Of a DNA stretch of 64,000 nucleotides, positions 22,180 through 62,262 are shown piece by piece. The notes beneath the pieces are model-generated. The model did no database searches and was not told where the DNA came from. It worked only from the letters and a program-made list of their open reading frames with translations. Each line of letters begins with the position of its first letter. The first letter of the stretch is position 1. Source of the stretch: Myxococcales bacterium (GTDB lineage: Bacteria; Myxococcota_A; Polyangia; Polyangiales; GCA-016699535). The stretch lies in contig CP064980.1 of assembly GCA_016699535.1 (NCBI GenBank), positions 1,425,728 through 1,489,727 on the forward strand, written 5' to 3'. Position numbers and translations under genes: made by a program.

Positions 22180-22528
22180 ATAGCTCCTATGCCGGAATCT
22201 ACCTACAACGTAGGTACATCTTACAAAAGACAGACGATAACTGCTTGACCCCTGACTTTGGAAAAAGGTAAATTAGGGTATGTTCCTTCTGTCGAGAATC
22301 GTGAACGGACCGTTTGTAAGAATCCCTTATGTGCATGAACCAGGGAGTGTTATTGAAGGCGGTGTGCAGGCCCGGCAAACATCACCGGGACGCCTAAAGC
22401 CAACGAAAAACACACCCACCTAGCGAAGCTAGGGGTTCTCATCGGCATCACGTCTAGGACGGTTGAGCATTAGGGGGGTTTGATAACCATCAGGCCCCTC
22501 GCTTTTAATTTCACGACTAAGATAGGTA

Positions 22529-25064: not shown

Positions 25065-26069
25065 CTAGAGTCTAACCAATGCTGAGCCCCATGTGAAACC
25101 TGAACCGAAAGCGGCAAATAATACAAGCTGACCGGGCAAAGCTTTTTCTTCTTCCCATGCACTGCTGAGAGCCATTGGAATGGAGGCCGCCGTGGTATTT
25201 CCATATTTTTCAATATTGTGTACCACTTTGTCTGGGTTAATGCCTAGTTTTTTGGCTACCAGTTCGTTGATGCGCATGTTGGCTTGATGTGGAACAAAGA
25301 GATCAACGTCATCAAGGGGTATCTTATTTTTTTTCAGAATGGAGAGGCTGACTTCAGGCATTTTTTCCGTAGCCCAGCGAAACACCTGCTTTCCATTCAT
25401 GCGGGGAAATTGTTTTCCTTCATCAATCATAGCATGATCAATTCGGGGAAAATGCGCGCTTGTTGGTGCTTCAACCCAAAGTTCTTTAGCGCCGCTTCCA
25501 TCCGCATGCAGTTCGATATCGATGATGCCTTGCTGTGGGCGTATGGCAGGGCCTACGATGACGGCTCCGGCGCCATCTCCAAATAAAACGGCTACATCTC
25601 GTCCCTTGTCGGAAAAATCCAGACCTGTTGAATGCACCTCAGCACCGACGAGGCAAACATGCTTGTACATGCCGCAACGCACCCATGCATCCGCGATTTG
25701 CAAACCATAAAGAAAGCCAGAGCATTGGTTTCGTATATCGAGAGCAGGCACCGTGCTTAGTCCAAGTTTGCGCTGCAAAAGGCAGCCACTTCCAGGAAAG
25801 TTATAGTCAGGTGAGAGCGTTGCAAAAACGATGGCATCGAGCTCGCTCGGGGCGATGCCAGCACGTTTACAGGCCATGGTTACAGCCGGTACCGCCAGAT
25901 CGCTTGCTCCACAGCTGCTCTGTGGATCGATGAATCTGCGTTCAGCAATCCCAGTGCGCTTCCGAATCCAGTCATCGCTCGTGCTCATGATCTTTGCGAG
26001 ATCGTCGTTGCTGACAATGCGATCGGGTACATGGTGCCCGACCCCCAATATCGCCGATGAGATAGTCAT
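25065..26069 (-). CDS. fabH: 3-oxoacyl-ACP synthase III
   Basis: 334 aa with active-site Cys context NQCSGFLYGL, HQANMRI and GNTTAASIP. Confidence 0.9.
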   Translation of the reverse strand: MTISSAILGVGHHVPDRIVSNDDLAKIMSTSDDWIRKRTGIAERRFIDPQSSCGASDLAVPAVTMACKRAGIAPSELDAIVFATLSPDYNFPGSGCLLQRKLGLSTVPALDIRNQCSGFLYGLQIADAWVRCGMYKHVCLVGAEVHSTGLDFSDKGRDVAVLFGDGAGAVIVGPAIRPQQGIIDIELHADGSGAKELWVEAPTSAHFPRIDHAMIDEGKQFPRMNGKQVFRWATEKMPEVSLSILKKNKIPLDDVDLFVPHQANMRINELVAKKLGINPDKVVHNIEKYGNTTAASIPMALSSAWEEEKALPGQLVLFAAFGSGFTWGSALVRL

Positions 26070-26147
26070 GCACTATCCTTCCCTTGACCTCGCCCAAAGG
26101 TCAAACCCACAAAAGCATTCCCCCATTTTCACCAAGCCAACCACCCA

Positions 26148-26510
26148 CCCCGCGAGCAGCGCGAGCCCGCAGGGGAGCGAGCCAAGGCGCGAAGCGCCCT
26201 TGGGAGGGGATTGTCGTGAATCCCCTCTTTGGAGCGCTGCAACGCAGCGGTACAAACAGTTAAAGCTAAAGACTTAAGCAATTCCAAAATTTGCCAGCAA
26301 GCACCCCCGCTCGCAAAGCGAGCCCGCAGGGGAGGGAGCCGACGCGCAAAGCGCGTTCGGGAGGGGAGACGCGTGTCTCCCCTCTTTGGAGCGCTGCTAC
26401 GTAGCGGTACAAACAGTTAAAACGAGCCGACGCGCAAAGCGCGTTCGGGAGGGGAGACGCGTGTCTCCCCTCTTTGGAGCGCTGCTACGCAGCGGTCCAA
26501 ACAGTTAAAG
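26148..26510. repeat. Multi-hairpin intergenic repeat family: two full units (26148-26265, 26303-26421) with a conserved spacer, plus one 5'-truncated unit (26422-26510)
   Basis: Direct comparison of the copies here and at 61194-61472. Each unit contains hairpins CCGACGCGC-GAA-GCGCG(C)TCGG, GAGGGGA...TCCCCTC and TTTGGAGCGCTGC-NAC-GCAGCGGTCCAAA. Confidence 0.8.
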
Positions 26511-26519
26511 CAAATTGGG

Positions 26520-26603
26520 TAGCCGAGGTCGGACTCGAACCGACACGCCCTTGCGGGCACCGGATTTTGAATCCGGCGCGTCTGCCAGTTCCGCCACTCG
26601 GCC
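26520..26603 (-). tRNA. tRNA-Leu (anticodon CAA), class II with a long variable arm
   Basis: The reverse complement folds as GGCCGAG-TG-GCGG-AACTGGCAGA-CGCG-CCGGA-TTCAAAA-TCCGG-TGCCCGCAAGGGCGT-GTCGG-TTCGAGT-CCGAC-CTCGGCT-A. Very similar to E. coli tRNA-Leu. CCA is not exactly encoded (CCC). Confidence 0.85.
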
Positions 26604-26675
26604 AAAGGGGCCTCCTCGGTACTATAGCTTTGCAAAAGGAGCAAGCCTAAACGTCAGACCTAGCTCTGGAGGGCT

Positions 26676-60511: not shown

Positions 60512-60517
60512 TTGGCG

Positions 60518-61171
60518 ATGGCGCAGCGAGTGTTACGCGTGCTGTTTATCGGTAACAGCTACACATTTTATCACGAGATGCCAAAGTTAGTGCAATCACT
60601 TGCTCAAGGCCAAATCCCGATGGAGTGCGAGTATTCAGCGCGTGGTGGCGTGGACTTACGTTTGCATTGGCGCAAGATGAAGAGTCGAAAAAGAGTTGAA
60701 GAGGGCGATTGGAATCACGTTGTTGTGCAGGAGCGTAGCAGCGACCCTTTGCATTCGGGATTGAAGTTTTATTGGTATGGTTTGCGCTTTGTGCGGGCAG
60801 CGCATCGCATTGGAGCAAAACCTCTCCTTTTTCAAACTTGGCCACGCAAAGCCGGTCACGAGCTGTATCAATCGGCATGGTCTGGTGAAAATCCTGAACG
60901 GATGCTCGAAAAGATAAGTAGTGCCTATCAAAAACTTGCCGCGATGTCTGATGCAAGCGTTATCCCGGTTGGCGAGAAATGGTGGAAGGTCTTGCAGCAT
61001 TTTCCTGGTATTGAGCTTTACGATGAAGATGGTCATCACGCCTCATTGGCTGGCGCCTATCTTACGGCCTGCACCTTTGCTCAAGCCTTCGGCGTCGACC
61101 TCAAGCAGACAGACTTTGTACCAAAAGATCTAAACCCAGAGTTAGCCCGCTGTCTTCGTGATTCAGTGTAG
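60518..61171 (+). CDS. SGNH/GDSL-hydrolase-like protein (DUF4886-like)
   Basis: RVLFIGNSYTFYHEMP N-terminal block is typical of the SGNH-like fold. DEDGHHASLAG sits near the C-terminus. Family call is tentative. Confidence 0.6.
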   Translation: MAQRVLRVLFIGNSYTFYHEMPKLVQSLAQGQIPMECEYSARGGVDLRLHWRKMKSRKRVEEGDWNHVVVQERSSDPLHSGLKFYWYGLRFVRAAHRIGAKPLLFQTWPRKAGHELYQSAWSGENPERMLEKISSAYQKLAAMSDASVIPVGEKWWKVLQHFPGIELYDEDGHHASLAGAYLTACTFAQAFGVDLKQTDFVPKDLNPELARCLRDSV

Positions 61172-61193
61172 ACATATACTTCCTAACCCCACA

Positions 61194-61472
61194 CCCCCGC
61201 GAGCAGCGCGAGCCCGCAGGGGAGGGGAGCCGACGCGCGAAGCGCGCTCGGGAGGGGATTGTCGTAAATCCCCTCTTTGGAGCGCTGCTACGCAGCGGTC
61301 CAACCAGTTAAAGCTAAAAACTTAACCAGTTCCAAAATTACCTACCCAATCACCCCGCGAGCAGCGCGAGCCCGCAGGGGAGGGAGCCGACGCGCGAAGC
61401 GCGCTCGGGAGGGGATTGTTGTGAATCCCCTCTTTGGAGCGCTGCTGCGCAGCGGTACAAACAGTCAAAGCT
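61194..61472. repeat. Second locus of the multi-hairpin intergenic repeat family: two units (61194-61313, 61354-61472) with the conserved spacer
   Basis: Same unit, spacer and orientation as 26148-26421. See the alignment in the findings. Confidence 0.8.
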
Positions 61473-61590
61473 AAAGAGCCCACCAACTTAAAAAATGTTT
61501 ATCGAACACCTGGCTTGCAAAGCAACGAGCCAAATAGCAAATCACCAAAAGCACTTGCAAATCTGTGGCTCTAATCGAATACTGGCGAGC

Positions 61591-62262
61591 ATGCAGCAAC
61601 AGCTGGATGAAGTAGAACGAAAACGGCTTTTTGAGTCCTACGGGCGTGAACATCGCGCTGGAGAGAGCATTTTTCACGAAGGTGATGCAAGTGACCTTTG
61701 CTATTTGCTTCAAGAAGGTCGCGTTCGCCTCGCCAAACAAATCCGTGGGATTGAGCGCGGGATGTCGGTTTTACGGCCGGGTGAGTTGTTTGGTGAAGAT
61801 GCGCTCGTTTCAAAAGGTGTACGGGCAAATAGCGCGATTGCGCTCAGTGACGTCACCACCCTTGCTTTCGATCGAGAAACCTTTGGCATGTTGCTTTCCA
61901 ATAACCCGGACGTTGGATTTAGGCTGCTTGAGCAATTGGTGCATCGCTTGCGGGACGCAGAGGAACGTCTCGAAAACAGCATGCTTCGTGACCATCCTTC
62001 ACGCGTGATCAATACATTACTCAAGCTCGCTGGCGCTTCAAAGTCTAAAGCAAGCCCTTTGACTTTGGATCTTTCACCCTTGGAACTGTCCGGTAGAGCG
62101 GGGCTCGATGTCGATGCTGTTAAAGCAGTAGTATTGCAACTGCGAGAAGGCGGCTACATTAAAATTCAACAAGAACAGTTGGTCATCATGGACGTTGATG
62201 CACTGAAGCGTCTTTATGAATTGCTAGGCGTCAAAGAAGAGGTGCGTGGCGATCGCGAATAG
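61591..62262 (+). CDS. Crp/Fnr-family transcriptional regulator (cNMP-binding domain plus wHTH)
   Basis: ATG at 61591. IFHEGDASDLCYLLQEGRVRL...PGELFGEDAL cNMP-binding pattern. C-terminal HTH region (SPLELSGRAGLDVDAVKAVVLQL). Confidence 0.8.
   Translation: MQQQLDEVERKRLFESYGREHRAGESIFHEGDASDLCYLLQEGRVRLAKQIRGIERGMSVLRPGELFGEDALVSKGVRANSAIALSDVTTLAFDRETFGMLLSNNPDVGFRLLEQLVHRLRDAEERLENSMLRDHPSRVINTLLKLAGASKSKASPLTLDLSPLELSGRAGLDVDAVKAVVLQLREGGYIKIQQEQLVIMDVDALKRLYELLGVKEEVRGDRE

What the first reader, a model, noticed from the sequence alone, without database searches (positions are those of the whole stretch)
26148..26510. Dispersed multi-hairpin intergenic repeat with compensatory stem substitutions (locus 1: 2.75 units next to tRNA-Leu)
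A unit of about 118 bp occurs at 26148-26265 and 26303-26421, and a 5'-truncated unit at 26422-26510. Two more units are at 61194-61472. Each unit has three consecutive hairpins followed by the conserved ACAGTTAAAGC.

In hairpin 1, copy 26148 has CCAAGGCGC-GAA-GCGCCCTTGG where the others have CCGACGCGC-[GA]AA-GCGCG[TC]TCGG. Two stem positions changed on both sides (G-C to A-T and C-G to G-C), keeping the pairing and the single bulge.

Hairpin 2 keeps the GAGGGGA/TCCCCTC stem. Its interior differs completely between variants (TTGTCGTGAA versus GAC-GCGT-GTC).

Covariation of this kind argues for selection on structure at the RNA or DNA level. The elements have the same absolute orientation at both loci although the flanking genes are on opposite strands, which is REP/BIME- or MITE-like behaviour. 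I do not recognise the sequence.
Basis: seen in the sequence. Interest (0 to 1): 0.6.

Follow-up and report, generated by a model that had tools for sequence, protein, structure and literature searches.

The report
Dispersed four-hairpin intergenic repeat family
The flagged sequence is a real non-coding DNA repeat of about 44 copies, built from four hairpins. It is the local version of an undescribed repeat family shared by one bacterial order, so it is a new variant of the familiar REP/MITE class of repeats and not a new kind of system.

Summary
The window has 2.75 units at 26139-26511 and two units at 61186-61476.

**In this genome (4.02 Mb)**
- About 44 units lie at 23 intergenic loci, on both strands.
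- They form head-to-tail arrays of 1-4 units, with a period of 157 nt, or 88 nt for 5'-truncated units.
- Each full unit has four hairpins, not three.
- Compensatory stem changes are real: 5 covarying pairs, and 0 of 500 shuffles reach the observed value.

**Beyond this genome**
- A covariance model shows the unit is the local branch of a family confined to the same order: 26 of 401 genomes sampled from the class, up to 99 or more copies in one genome.
- The conserved core is a head hairpin GCGAGC-RAA-GCGAGC with tandem G·A pairs, a G-run, a hairpin with a variable stem, and a hairpin with a GCGU loop.
- Across genomes almost every stem pair covaries.

**What it is not**
- It matches no Rfam family, promoter consensus or terminator consensus.
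- Its ends are not flanked by RAYT-type transposase genes; one such gene here is flanked by a different repeat.
- It shows no terminal inverted repeats or target duplication, and no recurrent neighbour gene.

**Unexplained:** 11 of 23 loci adjoin tRNA genes, and in every case the unit's tail faces the tRNA.

**Verdict:** most likely a non-autonomous structured repeat of the REP/MITE/MIRU type. Its mobiliser is unknown.

The parts
26139..26270 (+). Full unit 1. It comprises an A/C-rich lead-in, the head hairpin (26148-26175, with GCGAGC-AGC-GCGAGC at 26152-26166), the G-run GGGGAGCGA, hairpin 1 (26182-26203, the CCAAGG/CCTTGG variant), hairpin 2 (26204-26227), hairpin 3 (26229-26255) and the tail ACAGTTAAAGC (26256-26266).
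   Evidence: model R1, 141 bits.
26271..26295 (+). Conserved A/C-rich spacer (..GACTTAAGCAATTCCAAAATTTGCC..). It belongs to the 157-nt period.
   Evidence: the same spacer recurs between units at other loci.
26296..26422 (+). Full unit 2. The head hairpin (26305-26332) is the Watson-Crick variant GCTCGC-AAA-GCGAGC. Hairpin 1 is at 26339-26360, hairpin 2 at 26361-26384 (GAC-GCGT-GTC variant), hairpin 3 at 26386-26412, and a shortened tail at 26413-26422.
   Evidence: 140 bits. It is only 81% identical to unit 1.
26423..26511 (+). The 5'-truncated (88-nt type) unit, lacking spacer and head hairpin. Hairpin 1 is at 26427-26448, hairpin 2 at 26449-26472, hairpin 3 at 26474-26500 and the tail ACAGTTAAAGC at 26501-26511. 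Its tail ends a few nt from the tRNA 3' end.
   Evidence: The same junction type occurs at three other loci, always at the tail end of the array.
26516..26604 (-). tRNA-Leu(CAA). It is the gene that the tail of the array faces. The units are antisense to it.
25065..26069 (-). FabH-type 3-oxoacyl-ACP synthase III gene. Its 5' end lies 70 nt from the head side of the array.
61186..61318 (+). Full unit 4 at locus 2. It starts 15 nt after the stop codon of a DUF4886 gene (60512-61171, plus strand).
   Evidence: (142 bits).
61319..61343 (+). Conserved spacer at locus 2.
61344..61476 (+). Full unit 5 at locus 2. It lies upstream of a Crp-like cNMP-binding regulator gene (61495-62262, plus strand).
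   Evidence: (145 bits).

Best explanation
The units are copies of a non-coding, non-autonomous, structured repeat element, called 'family A' here. Family A is the locally amplified branch of an undescribed repeat superfamily confined to the host's order. The host is probably a myxobacterium-like lineage, but that is an inference.

**Build.** The shown (plus-strand) sequence of a unit folds into four hairpins. The conserved core has four parts:
1. A C-run/G-run helix capped by a head hairpin, GCGAGC-RAA-GCGAGC. Its two arms pair through tandem sheared G·A pairs around a GAA-type triloop.
2. An unpaired G-run.
3. Hairpin 1, whose stem sequence is free to change.
4. Hairpin 2, a G/C stem closed by a conserved GCGU loop.

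**How it multiplies in this genome (shown)**
- Head-to-tail duplication gives 157-nt and 88-nt periods. Some neighbouring units are 99-100% identical.
- It has spread to 23 intergenic loci in both orientations.
- Copies exchange sequence. Module variants are mosaic, some stems are chimeric, and 20 of 34 array units have their closest relative at another locus.

**Inferred**
- The hairpins are kept because the element is recognised or propagated as a folded single strand. Single-stranded DNA is most likely, as with REP, IS200/IS605-type and integron attC substrates. The non-Watson-Crick features exist on one strand only, and orientation relative to neighbouring transcription is not fixed.
- Any effect on the host, such as 3'-end RNA hairpins or transcription barriers, would be secondary.
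- The enzyme that moves it has not been identified.
For: **Copy number and arrays**
- About 44 units lie at 23 loci.

**Structure**
- All four hairpins fold, with z-scores of -2.7 to -5.2.
- Covariation within the genome is significant.

**Superfamily**
- Model R1 finds related elements in other families of the order.
- Model R2 finds them in 26 of 401 genomes sampled from the class (21 genera), nearly all in the same order. There are at least 99 copies in G187 and at least 24 in G149.
- A phylum-wide sample of 401 genomes gave 11 positives, including G000 itself; outside the order there were only two single weak hits.

**Covariation across genomes**
- 89.8% of cells are paired, against 67.8% in shuffles.
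- 212 cells are changed on both sides, against 69 in shuffles (0/500).
- Controls with the partner slid give at most 51% paired.

**Strand-specific features**
- Tandem G·A pairs can form only on the shown strand.
- The G·A pairs are replaced by Watson-Crick pairs in 5 units of this genome (GCTCGC..GCGAGC) and in G149 (GCCGGC-GAA-GCCGGC). A flanking C-G pair becomes U-A in G061 and G068 (GTGAGC..GCGAAC).
- Wobble pairs favour the shown strand in relatives: 13 against 2 in hairpin 1, and 6 against 1 in hairpin 3.

**Mobility-like behaviour**
- G149 holds near-identical dispersed copies of a 151-nt element with sharp borders and imperfect terminal inverted repeats.
- The distribution is patchy, and the element is absent from the two other genomes of the same family.
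- The unit has about 65% G+C in a genome of 51%.

**Mosaicism:**

**Negative results consistent with a repeat element:** no Rfam family, no promoter or terminator consensus, and no recurrent neighbour gene.
Against: - No transposase, target motif or target-site duplication was found. No autonomous partner with the same ends turned up in G149.
- Orientation shows no significant bias with respect to replication (14 to 9). IS200/IS605-type single-strand transposition would predict a bias.
- Y1/RAYT-type genes are absent from G060, G061 and G097, which do carry copies.
- The conserved part is the core and not the ends. This is unlike ordinary MITEs and could point to a host function.
- In relatives the elements sit almost only next to gene 3' ends (27 of 28 classified loci; 9 of 9 G149 copies start at a stop codon). 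This also fits a terminator or stabiliser role.
- No RNA or strain-polymorphism data could be obtained.
- The cross-genome alignment was fitted to the model's structure, which inflates the pairing counts somewhat.
Confidence: 0.6

Rival explanations
1. The units are domesticated RNA modules at gene 3' ends. On this view the hairpin cluster is transcribed as the 3' end of neighbouring genes or tRNA precursors. It would act as a U-tract-independent, possibly bidirectional terminator, as an exonuclease block that stabilises the transcript, or as an insulator.
For: - In relatives, 27 of 28 classified loci adjoin at least one gene 3' end, 14 of 28 lie between convergent genes, and only 1 of 28 lies between divergent genes.
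- In G149, 9 of 9 copies begin exactly at the TGA stop of an upstream gene in the sense orientation. In 6 of 9, a convergent gene stops 5-20 nt beyond the other end.
- In family A, hairpin 2 is followed by UCUUUGG.
- Eight loci lie directly after tRNA genes, and six tails lie 0-8 nt from the stop of a convergent coding gene.
- Wobble pairs favour one strand.
Against: - The scan finds no terminator consensus, and relatives have no U-tract after hairpin 2.
- Where only one neighbouring gene can read into the element, the orientation is random: 6 sense against 7 antisense.
- In this genome 5 of 23 loci lie between divergent gene starts, and the gene-context classes match a random expectation (6 convergent, 12 co-directional, 5 divergent).
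- All eight tRNA-downstream copies are antisense to the tRNA. The strand with the tandem G·A hairpin would therefore not be in the tRNA transcript.
- Individual insertions are not conserved in relatives.
Confidence: 0.22
2. The units are classical REP/BIME or REPIN elements mobilised by one of the genome's RAYT-type (Y1 HUH) transposases.
For: - The genome has seven Y1_Tnp (PF01797) open reading frames with HUH and catalytic-Tyr motifs.
- The hairpins carry a conserved bulge and non-canonical pairs, which is typical of single-stranded DNA substrates.
Against: - No RAYT-like gene lies near a family A locus, and none of their flanks resembles the unit.
- The gene at genome position 1069523-1070200 is flanked by inverted copies of a different repeat, TTGGGGACATGC....
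- Units are arranged head-to-tail and never as inverted doublets.
- No invariant GTAG or CGTC tag is present.
- G060, G061 and G097 have elements of the superfamily but no Y1_Tnp hit.
Confidence: 0.07
3. Each unit is a small RNA gene, so the arrays are tandem small-RNA gene clusters like NsiR1 or LhrC.
For: - The units are strongly structured, with conserved loops (GAA, GCGU).
- The spacer is conserved and could hold a promoter.
- The units are arranged in tandem.
Against: - No sigma-70-like promoter or terminator was found in either orientation.
- No RNA run holds the sequence.
- Truncated units lack the spacer.
- The flanks differ completely between genomes while the core is kept.
- Copy number is very variable, from 0 to at least 99 per genome.
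Confidence: 0.05

Closest known systems
REP / BIME elements of Enterobacteria and Pseudomonas, and REPIN-RAYT systems (Nunvar 2010, PMC2817692; Bertels and Rainey 2011, PMC3116915; Di Nocera 2013, PMC3733652)
   Same: - Both are extragenic, G+C-rich, imperfect palindromes in tens to hundreds of copies.
- Both are clustered into composite arrays, are lineage-specific and lie mostly beside gene 3' ends (in relatives).
- Both have stems kept by compensatory change.
   Different: - The unit is 131-157 nt with four different hairpins, not 20-40 nt with one.
- Arrays are head-to-tail, not alternating or inverted.
- There is no GTAG or CGTC tag.
- No RAYT gene is flanked by it. The RAYT-like gene here with flanking repeats uses another family.
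MITEs (for example Correia, ERIC/IRU, RUP; review PMC3184786)
   Same: - Both are small, non-coding and dispersed, with bursts of near-identical copies.
- The G149 branch has sharp borders and imperfect terminal inverted repeats.
   Different: - Family A has no terminal inverted repeats, no target-site duplication and no related autonomous insertion sequence.
- Across genomes the internal core is conserved while the ends differ, which is the reverse of usual MITE families.
MIRU/VNTR minisatellites of Mycobacterium tuberculosis (from my own knowledge; not re-read here)
   Same: Both have many intergenic loci, each holding a short head-to-tail array of a 50-160 nt unit, with the number of units differing between loci.
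   Different: - MIRUs are not multi-hairpin palindromes, and they often carry small open reading frames coupling adjacent genes.
- Strain polymorphism could not be tested here.
Other hairpin repeat families noted by this scan in uncultured Myxococcota (e1-2400084, e1-2114168, e1-1504630, e1-1433800, e1-4107732)
   Same: They share the same theme: intergenic hairpin repeats, single or in tandem, with an invariant arm plus a stem that differs between copies, GNA-triloop mini-hairpins, and no RAYT link.
   Different: Sequence relatedness to the present superfamily was not tested, and a look-up by sequence found nothing. These are unchecked AI notes.

Membership tests
REP (RAYT-mobilised, GTAG/CGTC-tagged) | A single 20-40 nt imperfect palindrome with an invariant GTAG or CGTC tag at one end | tested here: not met
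   - The unit is 131 nt with four hairpins.
- CTAC occurs only in some hairpin 3 loops (TAC variant).
- GACG in hairpin 1 is lost in the CCAAGG variant.
REP (RAYT-mobilised, GTAG/CGTC-tagged) | A RAYT (Y1 HUH) gene flanked by the cognate repeats (a REPtron) | tested here: not met
   - Seven PF01797 open reading frames are present, none near a unit, and no flank resembles the unit.
- One is flanked by another repeat.
- Relatives with copies lack PF01797.
REP (RAYT-mobilised, GTAG/CGTC-tagged) | Extragenic, multi-copy and lineage-specific | tested here: met
   - 23 intergenic loci hold about 44 units.
- The element is absent from 40 relatives by BLAST and from the public collections searched by 19-mer.
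BIME / REPIN | Repeats in alternating or inverted orientation within a cluster | tested here: not met
   All arrays are head-to-tail.
MITE | Terminal inverted repeats | tested here: not met
   - No terminal inverted repeats are seen at unit or array ends in G000.
- Imperfect ones are present in the related G149 element.
MITE | Target-site duplication and a related autonomous insertion sequence with the same ends | tested here: not met
   - No duplication is seen at G000 or G149 borders.
- In G149 the end motif occurs only in pairs about 120 nt apart.
- No recurrent neighbour gene is found.
IS200/IS605-type non-autonomous elements (PATE) | Subterminal imperfect hairpins, no terminal inverted repeats or target duplication, insertion next to a fixed short motif, and bias toward one replication strand | tested here: inconclusive
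   - Hairpins are present and terminal repeats and duplications are absent, which fits.
- No fixed flanking motif was found.
- Strand bias is 14 to 9, not significant.
- No linked TnpA or TnpB gene was found.
MIRU-like minisatellite | Many intergenic loci with head-to-tail arrays whose unit number differs between loci | tested here: met
   Arrays of 1-4 units occur at 23 loci, with periods of 157 and 88 nt.
MIRU-like minisatellite | Copy-number polymorphism between strains | not testable with these tools
   Only low-depth short contigs from metagenome runs were available.
Intrinsic terminator | A G+C-rich hairpin followed directly by a U-tract | tested here: not met
   - The scan finds none on either strand.
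- Only UCUUUGG follows hairpin 2, and it is absent in relatives.
Any Rfam RNA family | A covariance-model match | tested here: not met
   - Nothing but the tRNA at the gathering threshold.
- The best other hit has E = 2.3.
- There are no hits for relatives.

The most novel reading that the evidence does not exclude
The conserved core may not be mere selfish baggage. It could be a strand-specific nucleic-acid device that different mobile 'chassis' have repeatedly carried through one bacterial order.

The shown strand keeps these features together:
- a tandem-G·A head hairpin with a GAA triloop;
- a GCGU-loop hairpin;
- four G-runs arranged as G3-4 N1 G3-4, then a hairpin, then G3-4 N1 G3-4.

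Such a sequence could switch between a three-hairpin fold and a G-quadruplex with a hairpin loop. It might serve as the recognition structure for an unknown enzyme that acts on single-stranded DNA. Alternatively it might be a polar barrier to transcription or replication, placed at gene 3' ends and, in this genome, aimed at tRNA genes.
Probability: 0.12. Interest if true: 0.75.

Novelty: new variant of a known kind. Interest (0 to 1): 0.45.

Why it matters
This gives a defined, structure-validated repeat superfamily for an order of mostly uncultured bacteria.

**Practical uses**
- The repeats break short-read assemblies. Many G187 copies sit at contig ends.
- They could serve as strain-typing (VNTR) loci.
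- They mark gene 3' ends in the related genomes.

**Biological questions**
- The core is conserved while the ends vary.
- The non-canonical pairs exist on one strand only.
- In this genome every copy beside a tRNA gene points its tail at the tRNA.

None of these three points is explained by current REP, RAYT or MITE models. If a mobilising or binding protein were found, it would probably be a new enzyme-substrate pair for hairpin DNA. As it stands, the element is a new family of a familiar class and not a new kind of system.

Tried and rejected
- **Exact 19-mer scans.** Scans of genome contigs and metagenome contigs gave only chance single matches inside coding sequence.
- **Plasmids and phages.** BLAST gave no match.
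- **RNA evidence.** No RNA run holds the repeat; the RNA runs listed share only tRNA words.
- **Metagenome contigs.** Contigs laid from four runs, then from three more, are low-depth fragments. They show the family in sludge, aquatic and soil samples but give no context or polymorphism.
- **RAYT hypothesis.** Rejected on the evidence given in the rival explanation for RAYT-mobilised REP/BIME elements.
- **Degenerate pattern.** GCGAGCNNNGCGAGCNCCGC in relatives was uninformative, because control counts are equal in high-GC genomes.
- **Synteny or empty site.** The nearest usable relative (FabH 68% identical) has tRNA-Leu(CAA) beside fabH but in a different arrangement, so no empty site could be shown.
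- **Hammerhead ribozyme idea.** CUGAUGA/GAAA-like strings occur 3' of the core in some relatives. The idea was rejected because Rfam gives no hit and the core positions do not fit.
- **Sigma-54 and sigma-70 promoters in the spacer.** Spacing and consensus do not fit (own reading).
- **Replication-strand bias.** Not significant.
- **'Tail is closer to genes than head'.** Dropped, because the head coordinates omit the roughly 30-nt spacer.
- **Host identification.** An NCBIfam scan of a lipoprotein was uninformative.

Full report
**1. The observation**

Reading the window and the repeat finder (families D9, D12, D14) confirm five copies.
- Full units lie at 26139-26270, 26296-26422, 61186-61318 and 61344-61476.
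- A 5'-truncated unit lies at 26423-26511.
- The 25-26 nt between full units are also conserved (..AAGC-AATTCCAAAATT..), so the true period is 157 nt.
- tRNA-Leu(CAA) lies at 26516-26604 on the minus strand by ARAGORN, or 26520-26603 by Rfam. The array ends a few nt from its 3' end.
- A FabH-type gene (25065-26069, minus strand) starts 70 nt from the other end.
- Locus 2 lies between a DUF4886 gene and a Crp-like regulator gene, both on the plus strand.

Folding shows four hairpins per full unit, not three.
- The extra one is a 5' 'head' hairpin, and it is what the truncated unit lacks.
- Folding energies have z-scores of -2.7 to -5.2 on either strand.

**2. Genome-wide picture**

The window lies in a single 4.02-Mb contig with 51% G+C. 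The sequence is found in activated-sludge metagenome runs.
- nhmmer finds 46 hits, about 44 units, at 23 loci on both strands.
- Arrays hold 1-4 units with a period of 157 nt, or 88 nt where truncated units follow one another or follow a full unit.
- All 42 well-scored units differ from each other.
- The variants of each hairpin are combined freely, and a few stems are chimeric.
- Adjacent units are on average more alike (0.92) than units at different loci (0.87), and some neighbours are 99-100% identical. Even so, only 14 of 34 array units have their nearest relative in their own array.
- The first two units of the flagged array are just 81% identical.
- Arrays therefore grow by local duplication, and they also receive sequence from other loci, either by side-by-side insertion or by gene conversion.

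**3. Covariation within the genome**

The test used 32 full units (alignment A1) and the four-hairpin structure.
- 90.3% of cells pair, against 87.2 ± 0.3 in shuffles (0/500).
- 36 cells differ on both sides, against 12 ± 2.4 (0/500).
- Controls with the partner slid give at most 51% paired.
- Five pairs covary: three in hairpin 1 and two in hairpin 2.
- My own count on 42 units agrees.
- Because the copies are paralogues, this amounts to about five or six events.
- Rare wobble pairs are equally frequent on both strands in hairpins 1-3.

**4. What it is not**

- *Known RNA:* no Rfam family matches.
- *Promoter or terminator:* no sigma-70-type promoter or hairpin-plus-U-tract terminator is found on either strand.
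- *Plasmid or phage:* no match.
- *Linked gene:* no neighbouring gene family recurs.
- *Replication strand:* there is no bias. The origin is near 0.80 Mb and the terminus near 2.74 Mb, and 14 loci have the shown strand on the leading strand against 9 on the lagging strand.
- *RAYT-type transposases:*
  - The genome has seven RAYT-like (PF01797) open reading frames.
  - None is near a unit, and none has a flank resembling a unit.
  - The one at genome position 1069523-1070200 is flanked by inverted copies of a different repeat, TTGGGGACATGC... plus a GCGATCGCGGAACCGT hairpin. This looks like a REPtron or TIRtron in the sense of PMC3733652.
- *Transposon ends:* no terminal inverted repeats or target duplications are visible at array ends.

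**5. tRNA association**

- Eleven of 23 loci share an intergenic interval with a tRNA gene.
  - The automated count gives 10; the eleventh is masked by a spurious ORF.
  - About 3-5% would be expected, so binomial P is at most 5e-8.
- In all eleven, the tail of the unit faces the tRNA (two-sided p about 0.001).
  - Eight lie 2-220 nt downstream of the tRNA 3' end and are antisense to it. These follow Gln-UUG, Leu-CAG, Leu-CAA, Leu-UAA, Leu-AAG, Met, Glu and Ser-GGA.
  - Three lie upstream and are sense. In the Val and Asp cases the tail ends about 18-20 nt before a TTGACA -35 box. The third case is Met.
- Thirteen further tRNAs carry other short repeat families within 400 bp. tRNA flanks are therefore general repeat sinks in this genome.
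- The literature notes that species-specific repeats beside RNA genes are common (PMC3372372).
- The strict orientation remains unexplained, and it is not seen in relatives.

**6. A wider family**

BLAST of a unit against 40 relatives found nothing convincing. A covariance model of the unit (R1) did hit multi-copy elements in other families of the order.

Aligned, these share a core:
- a C-run;
- the head hairpin GCGAGC-RAA-GCGAGC, followed by CCGCG and a G-run;
- an unpaired G-run (GGGGTGGGG);
- hairpin 1, with CCCC and GGGG ends and a stem that differs in nearly every genome;
- hairpin 2, of the form GGGG-NNN-C-GCGT-G-NNN-CCCC.

Covariation across genomes:
- 89.8% of cells pair, against 67.8% in shuffles.
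- 32 of 41 pairs change on both sides.
- 212 cells are changed on both sides, against 69 (0/500).
- Slid controls give at most 51%.
- One caveat is that the alignment was fitted to the model.

The head 'direct repeat' is in fact a hairpin. GCGAGC pairs with GCGAGC through G-C, C-G, G·A, A·G, G-C and C-G. The assignment of the G·A pairs as a tandem sheared motif rests on my own knowledge of the r(GGCGAGCC) duplex. Three observations support the hairpin:
- Five units of this genome have GCTCGC..GCGAGC, which is fully Watson-Crick.
- G149 has GCCGGC-GAA-GCCGGC.
- G061 and G068 have GTGAGC..GCGAAC, where a C-G pair has become U-A.

This hairpin, and an excess of G·U over A·C cells in relatives (13 to 2 and 6 to 1), mark the shown strand as the structured one.

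Distribution:
- A second model (R2) finds the family in 26 of 401 genomes sampled from the class, covering 21 genera and mostly one family, f17.
- A phylum-wide sample of 401 genomes gave 11 positives, including G000 itself. Outside the order there were only two single weak hits.
- G187 has at least 99 copies, many at contig ends.
- G037 has 137-nt tandem arrays.
- The two other genomes of the window's own family have none.

**7. Behaviour in relatives**

G149 holds at least 24 copies of a 151-nt element with sharp borders and imperfect terminal inverted repeats (CTGAAGGTCTGTC... and the reverse complement CTCAAGAGCTGTC...). It shows no clear target duplication.
- In 9 of 9 fetched copies, an upstream open reading frame with high third-position G+C ends exactly at the TGA inside the element's first CTGAAG.
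- In 6 of 9, a convergent open reading frame stops 5-20 nt past the other end.

Over 32 loci from ten genomes, 28 could be classified:

| Context | Loci (of 28) |
|---|---|
| Adjoins at least one gene 3' end | 27 |
| Between convergent genes | 14 |
| Between divergent genes | 1 |

- Where only one gene can read into the element, the orientation is 6 sense against 7 antisense.
- Elements occur in genomes without any PF01797 hit.
- The ends differ between genomes while the core is kept.

**8. Interpretation**

The evidence fits a non-autonomous structured repeat that spreads within and between genomes of one order. Its folding constraint acts on one strand.
- Because orientation relative to transcription is not fixed, I favour recognition as folded single-stranded DNA over a role in mRNA.
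- The strong preference for gene 3' ends in relatives keeps the terminator or stabiliser reading alive (22%).
- In this genome the family is less constrained: 6 convergent, 12 co-directional and 5 divergent contexts by crude gene calls.

What has been shown:
- copy number;
- array structure;
- hairpins and covariation;
- the superfamily;
- strand-specific non-canonical pairs;
- no RAYT-type gene flanked by or adjacent to these units in this genome, and no Y1_Tnp hit at all in three relatives that carry copies;
- the tRNA association.

What is inferred:
- mobility in this genome;
- the single-stranded DNA mode of recognition;
- the identity of the host phylum, which is probably Myxococcota. I base this on genome features and on this scan's earlier notes about similar repeats. 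It has not been verified.

**9. Novelty**

- No Rfam family matches.
- Two full-text searches found no description of such a repeat in myxobacteria.
- The class of element is familiar (REP, BIME, MITE, MIRU), but strict membership of each fails on a defining feature.
- The conserved core on varying ends, the tandem-G·A head hairpin and the tRNA-directed orientation are unusual.
- I rate it a new variant of a known kind, of moderate interest.

Noticed in passing
window 22283-22469 (+): A 6S (SsrS) RNA gene at the Rfam gathering threshold (51.4 bits). It probably explains the 'possible small RNA' noted for 22180-22528 by another first-stage finding (e1-3202359).
   Followed up: no
genome C1:1069400-1070360 (outside the window): A RAYT-like (PF01797) gene is flanked by inverted copies of a different repeat, TTGGGGACATGC.. 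plus a GCGATCGCGGAACCGT hairpin. That repeat occurs about 15 times in the genome, for example as a REPIN-like doublet at 638388-638538. This looks like a REPtron or TIRtron.
   Followed up: partly
genome C1, for example 1699346-1700346, 2877060-2877271, 3870773-3871145 and 3910216-3432: Several other short repeat families are present, notably a 150-250 nt long-palindrome MITE-like family (..TTTTTCGAGGTTTTC...GAAAACCTCGAAAAA..). They fill the spacers of tRNA clusters. In total 27 of 48 tRNA/tmRNA genes called by ARAGORN (47 tRNAs and one tmRNA; the tmRNA has none nearby) have some repeat within 400 bp.
   Followed up: partly
L021 (G009:C8) 1140-1300: In the closest usable relative, tRNA-Leu(CAA) also lies beside fabH but diverges from it. 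It is followed by a tandem 6/12-nt repeat (GACACTGCCACT-like) where this genome has family A units.
   Followed up: no
L002 and L027 (G029, genus g9): A short motif, CCCGCGGCAGCGCGAGCCCG[CA]AGGG, resembles the head of the unit. One copy lies at a contig end. It may be a diverged branch of the superfamily that the models missed.
   Followed up: no
genome C1:3251438-3251795: ARAGORN calls a tmRNA with an atypical tag peptide, EITELITLVKACLWASPKVTPKHKLRM. The tag may be mis-called.
   Followed up: no
genome C1, 3.84-3.99 Mb: A run of about a dozen tRNA genes lies on the plus strand in a region where GC skew implies that the minus strand is the leading strand. They would therefore be head-on to replication. 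This could reflect an inversion or a misassembly.
   Followed up: no
L116-L124 (G149): All nine fetched copies of the related 151-nt element supply or abut the TGA stop codon of the upstream gene (C|TGAAG). Eight of nine have a C before the TGA. This may be a target preference for stop codons.
   Followed up: partly
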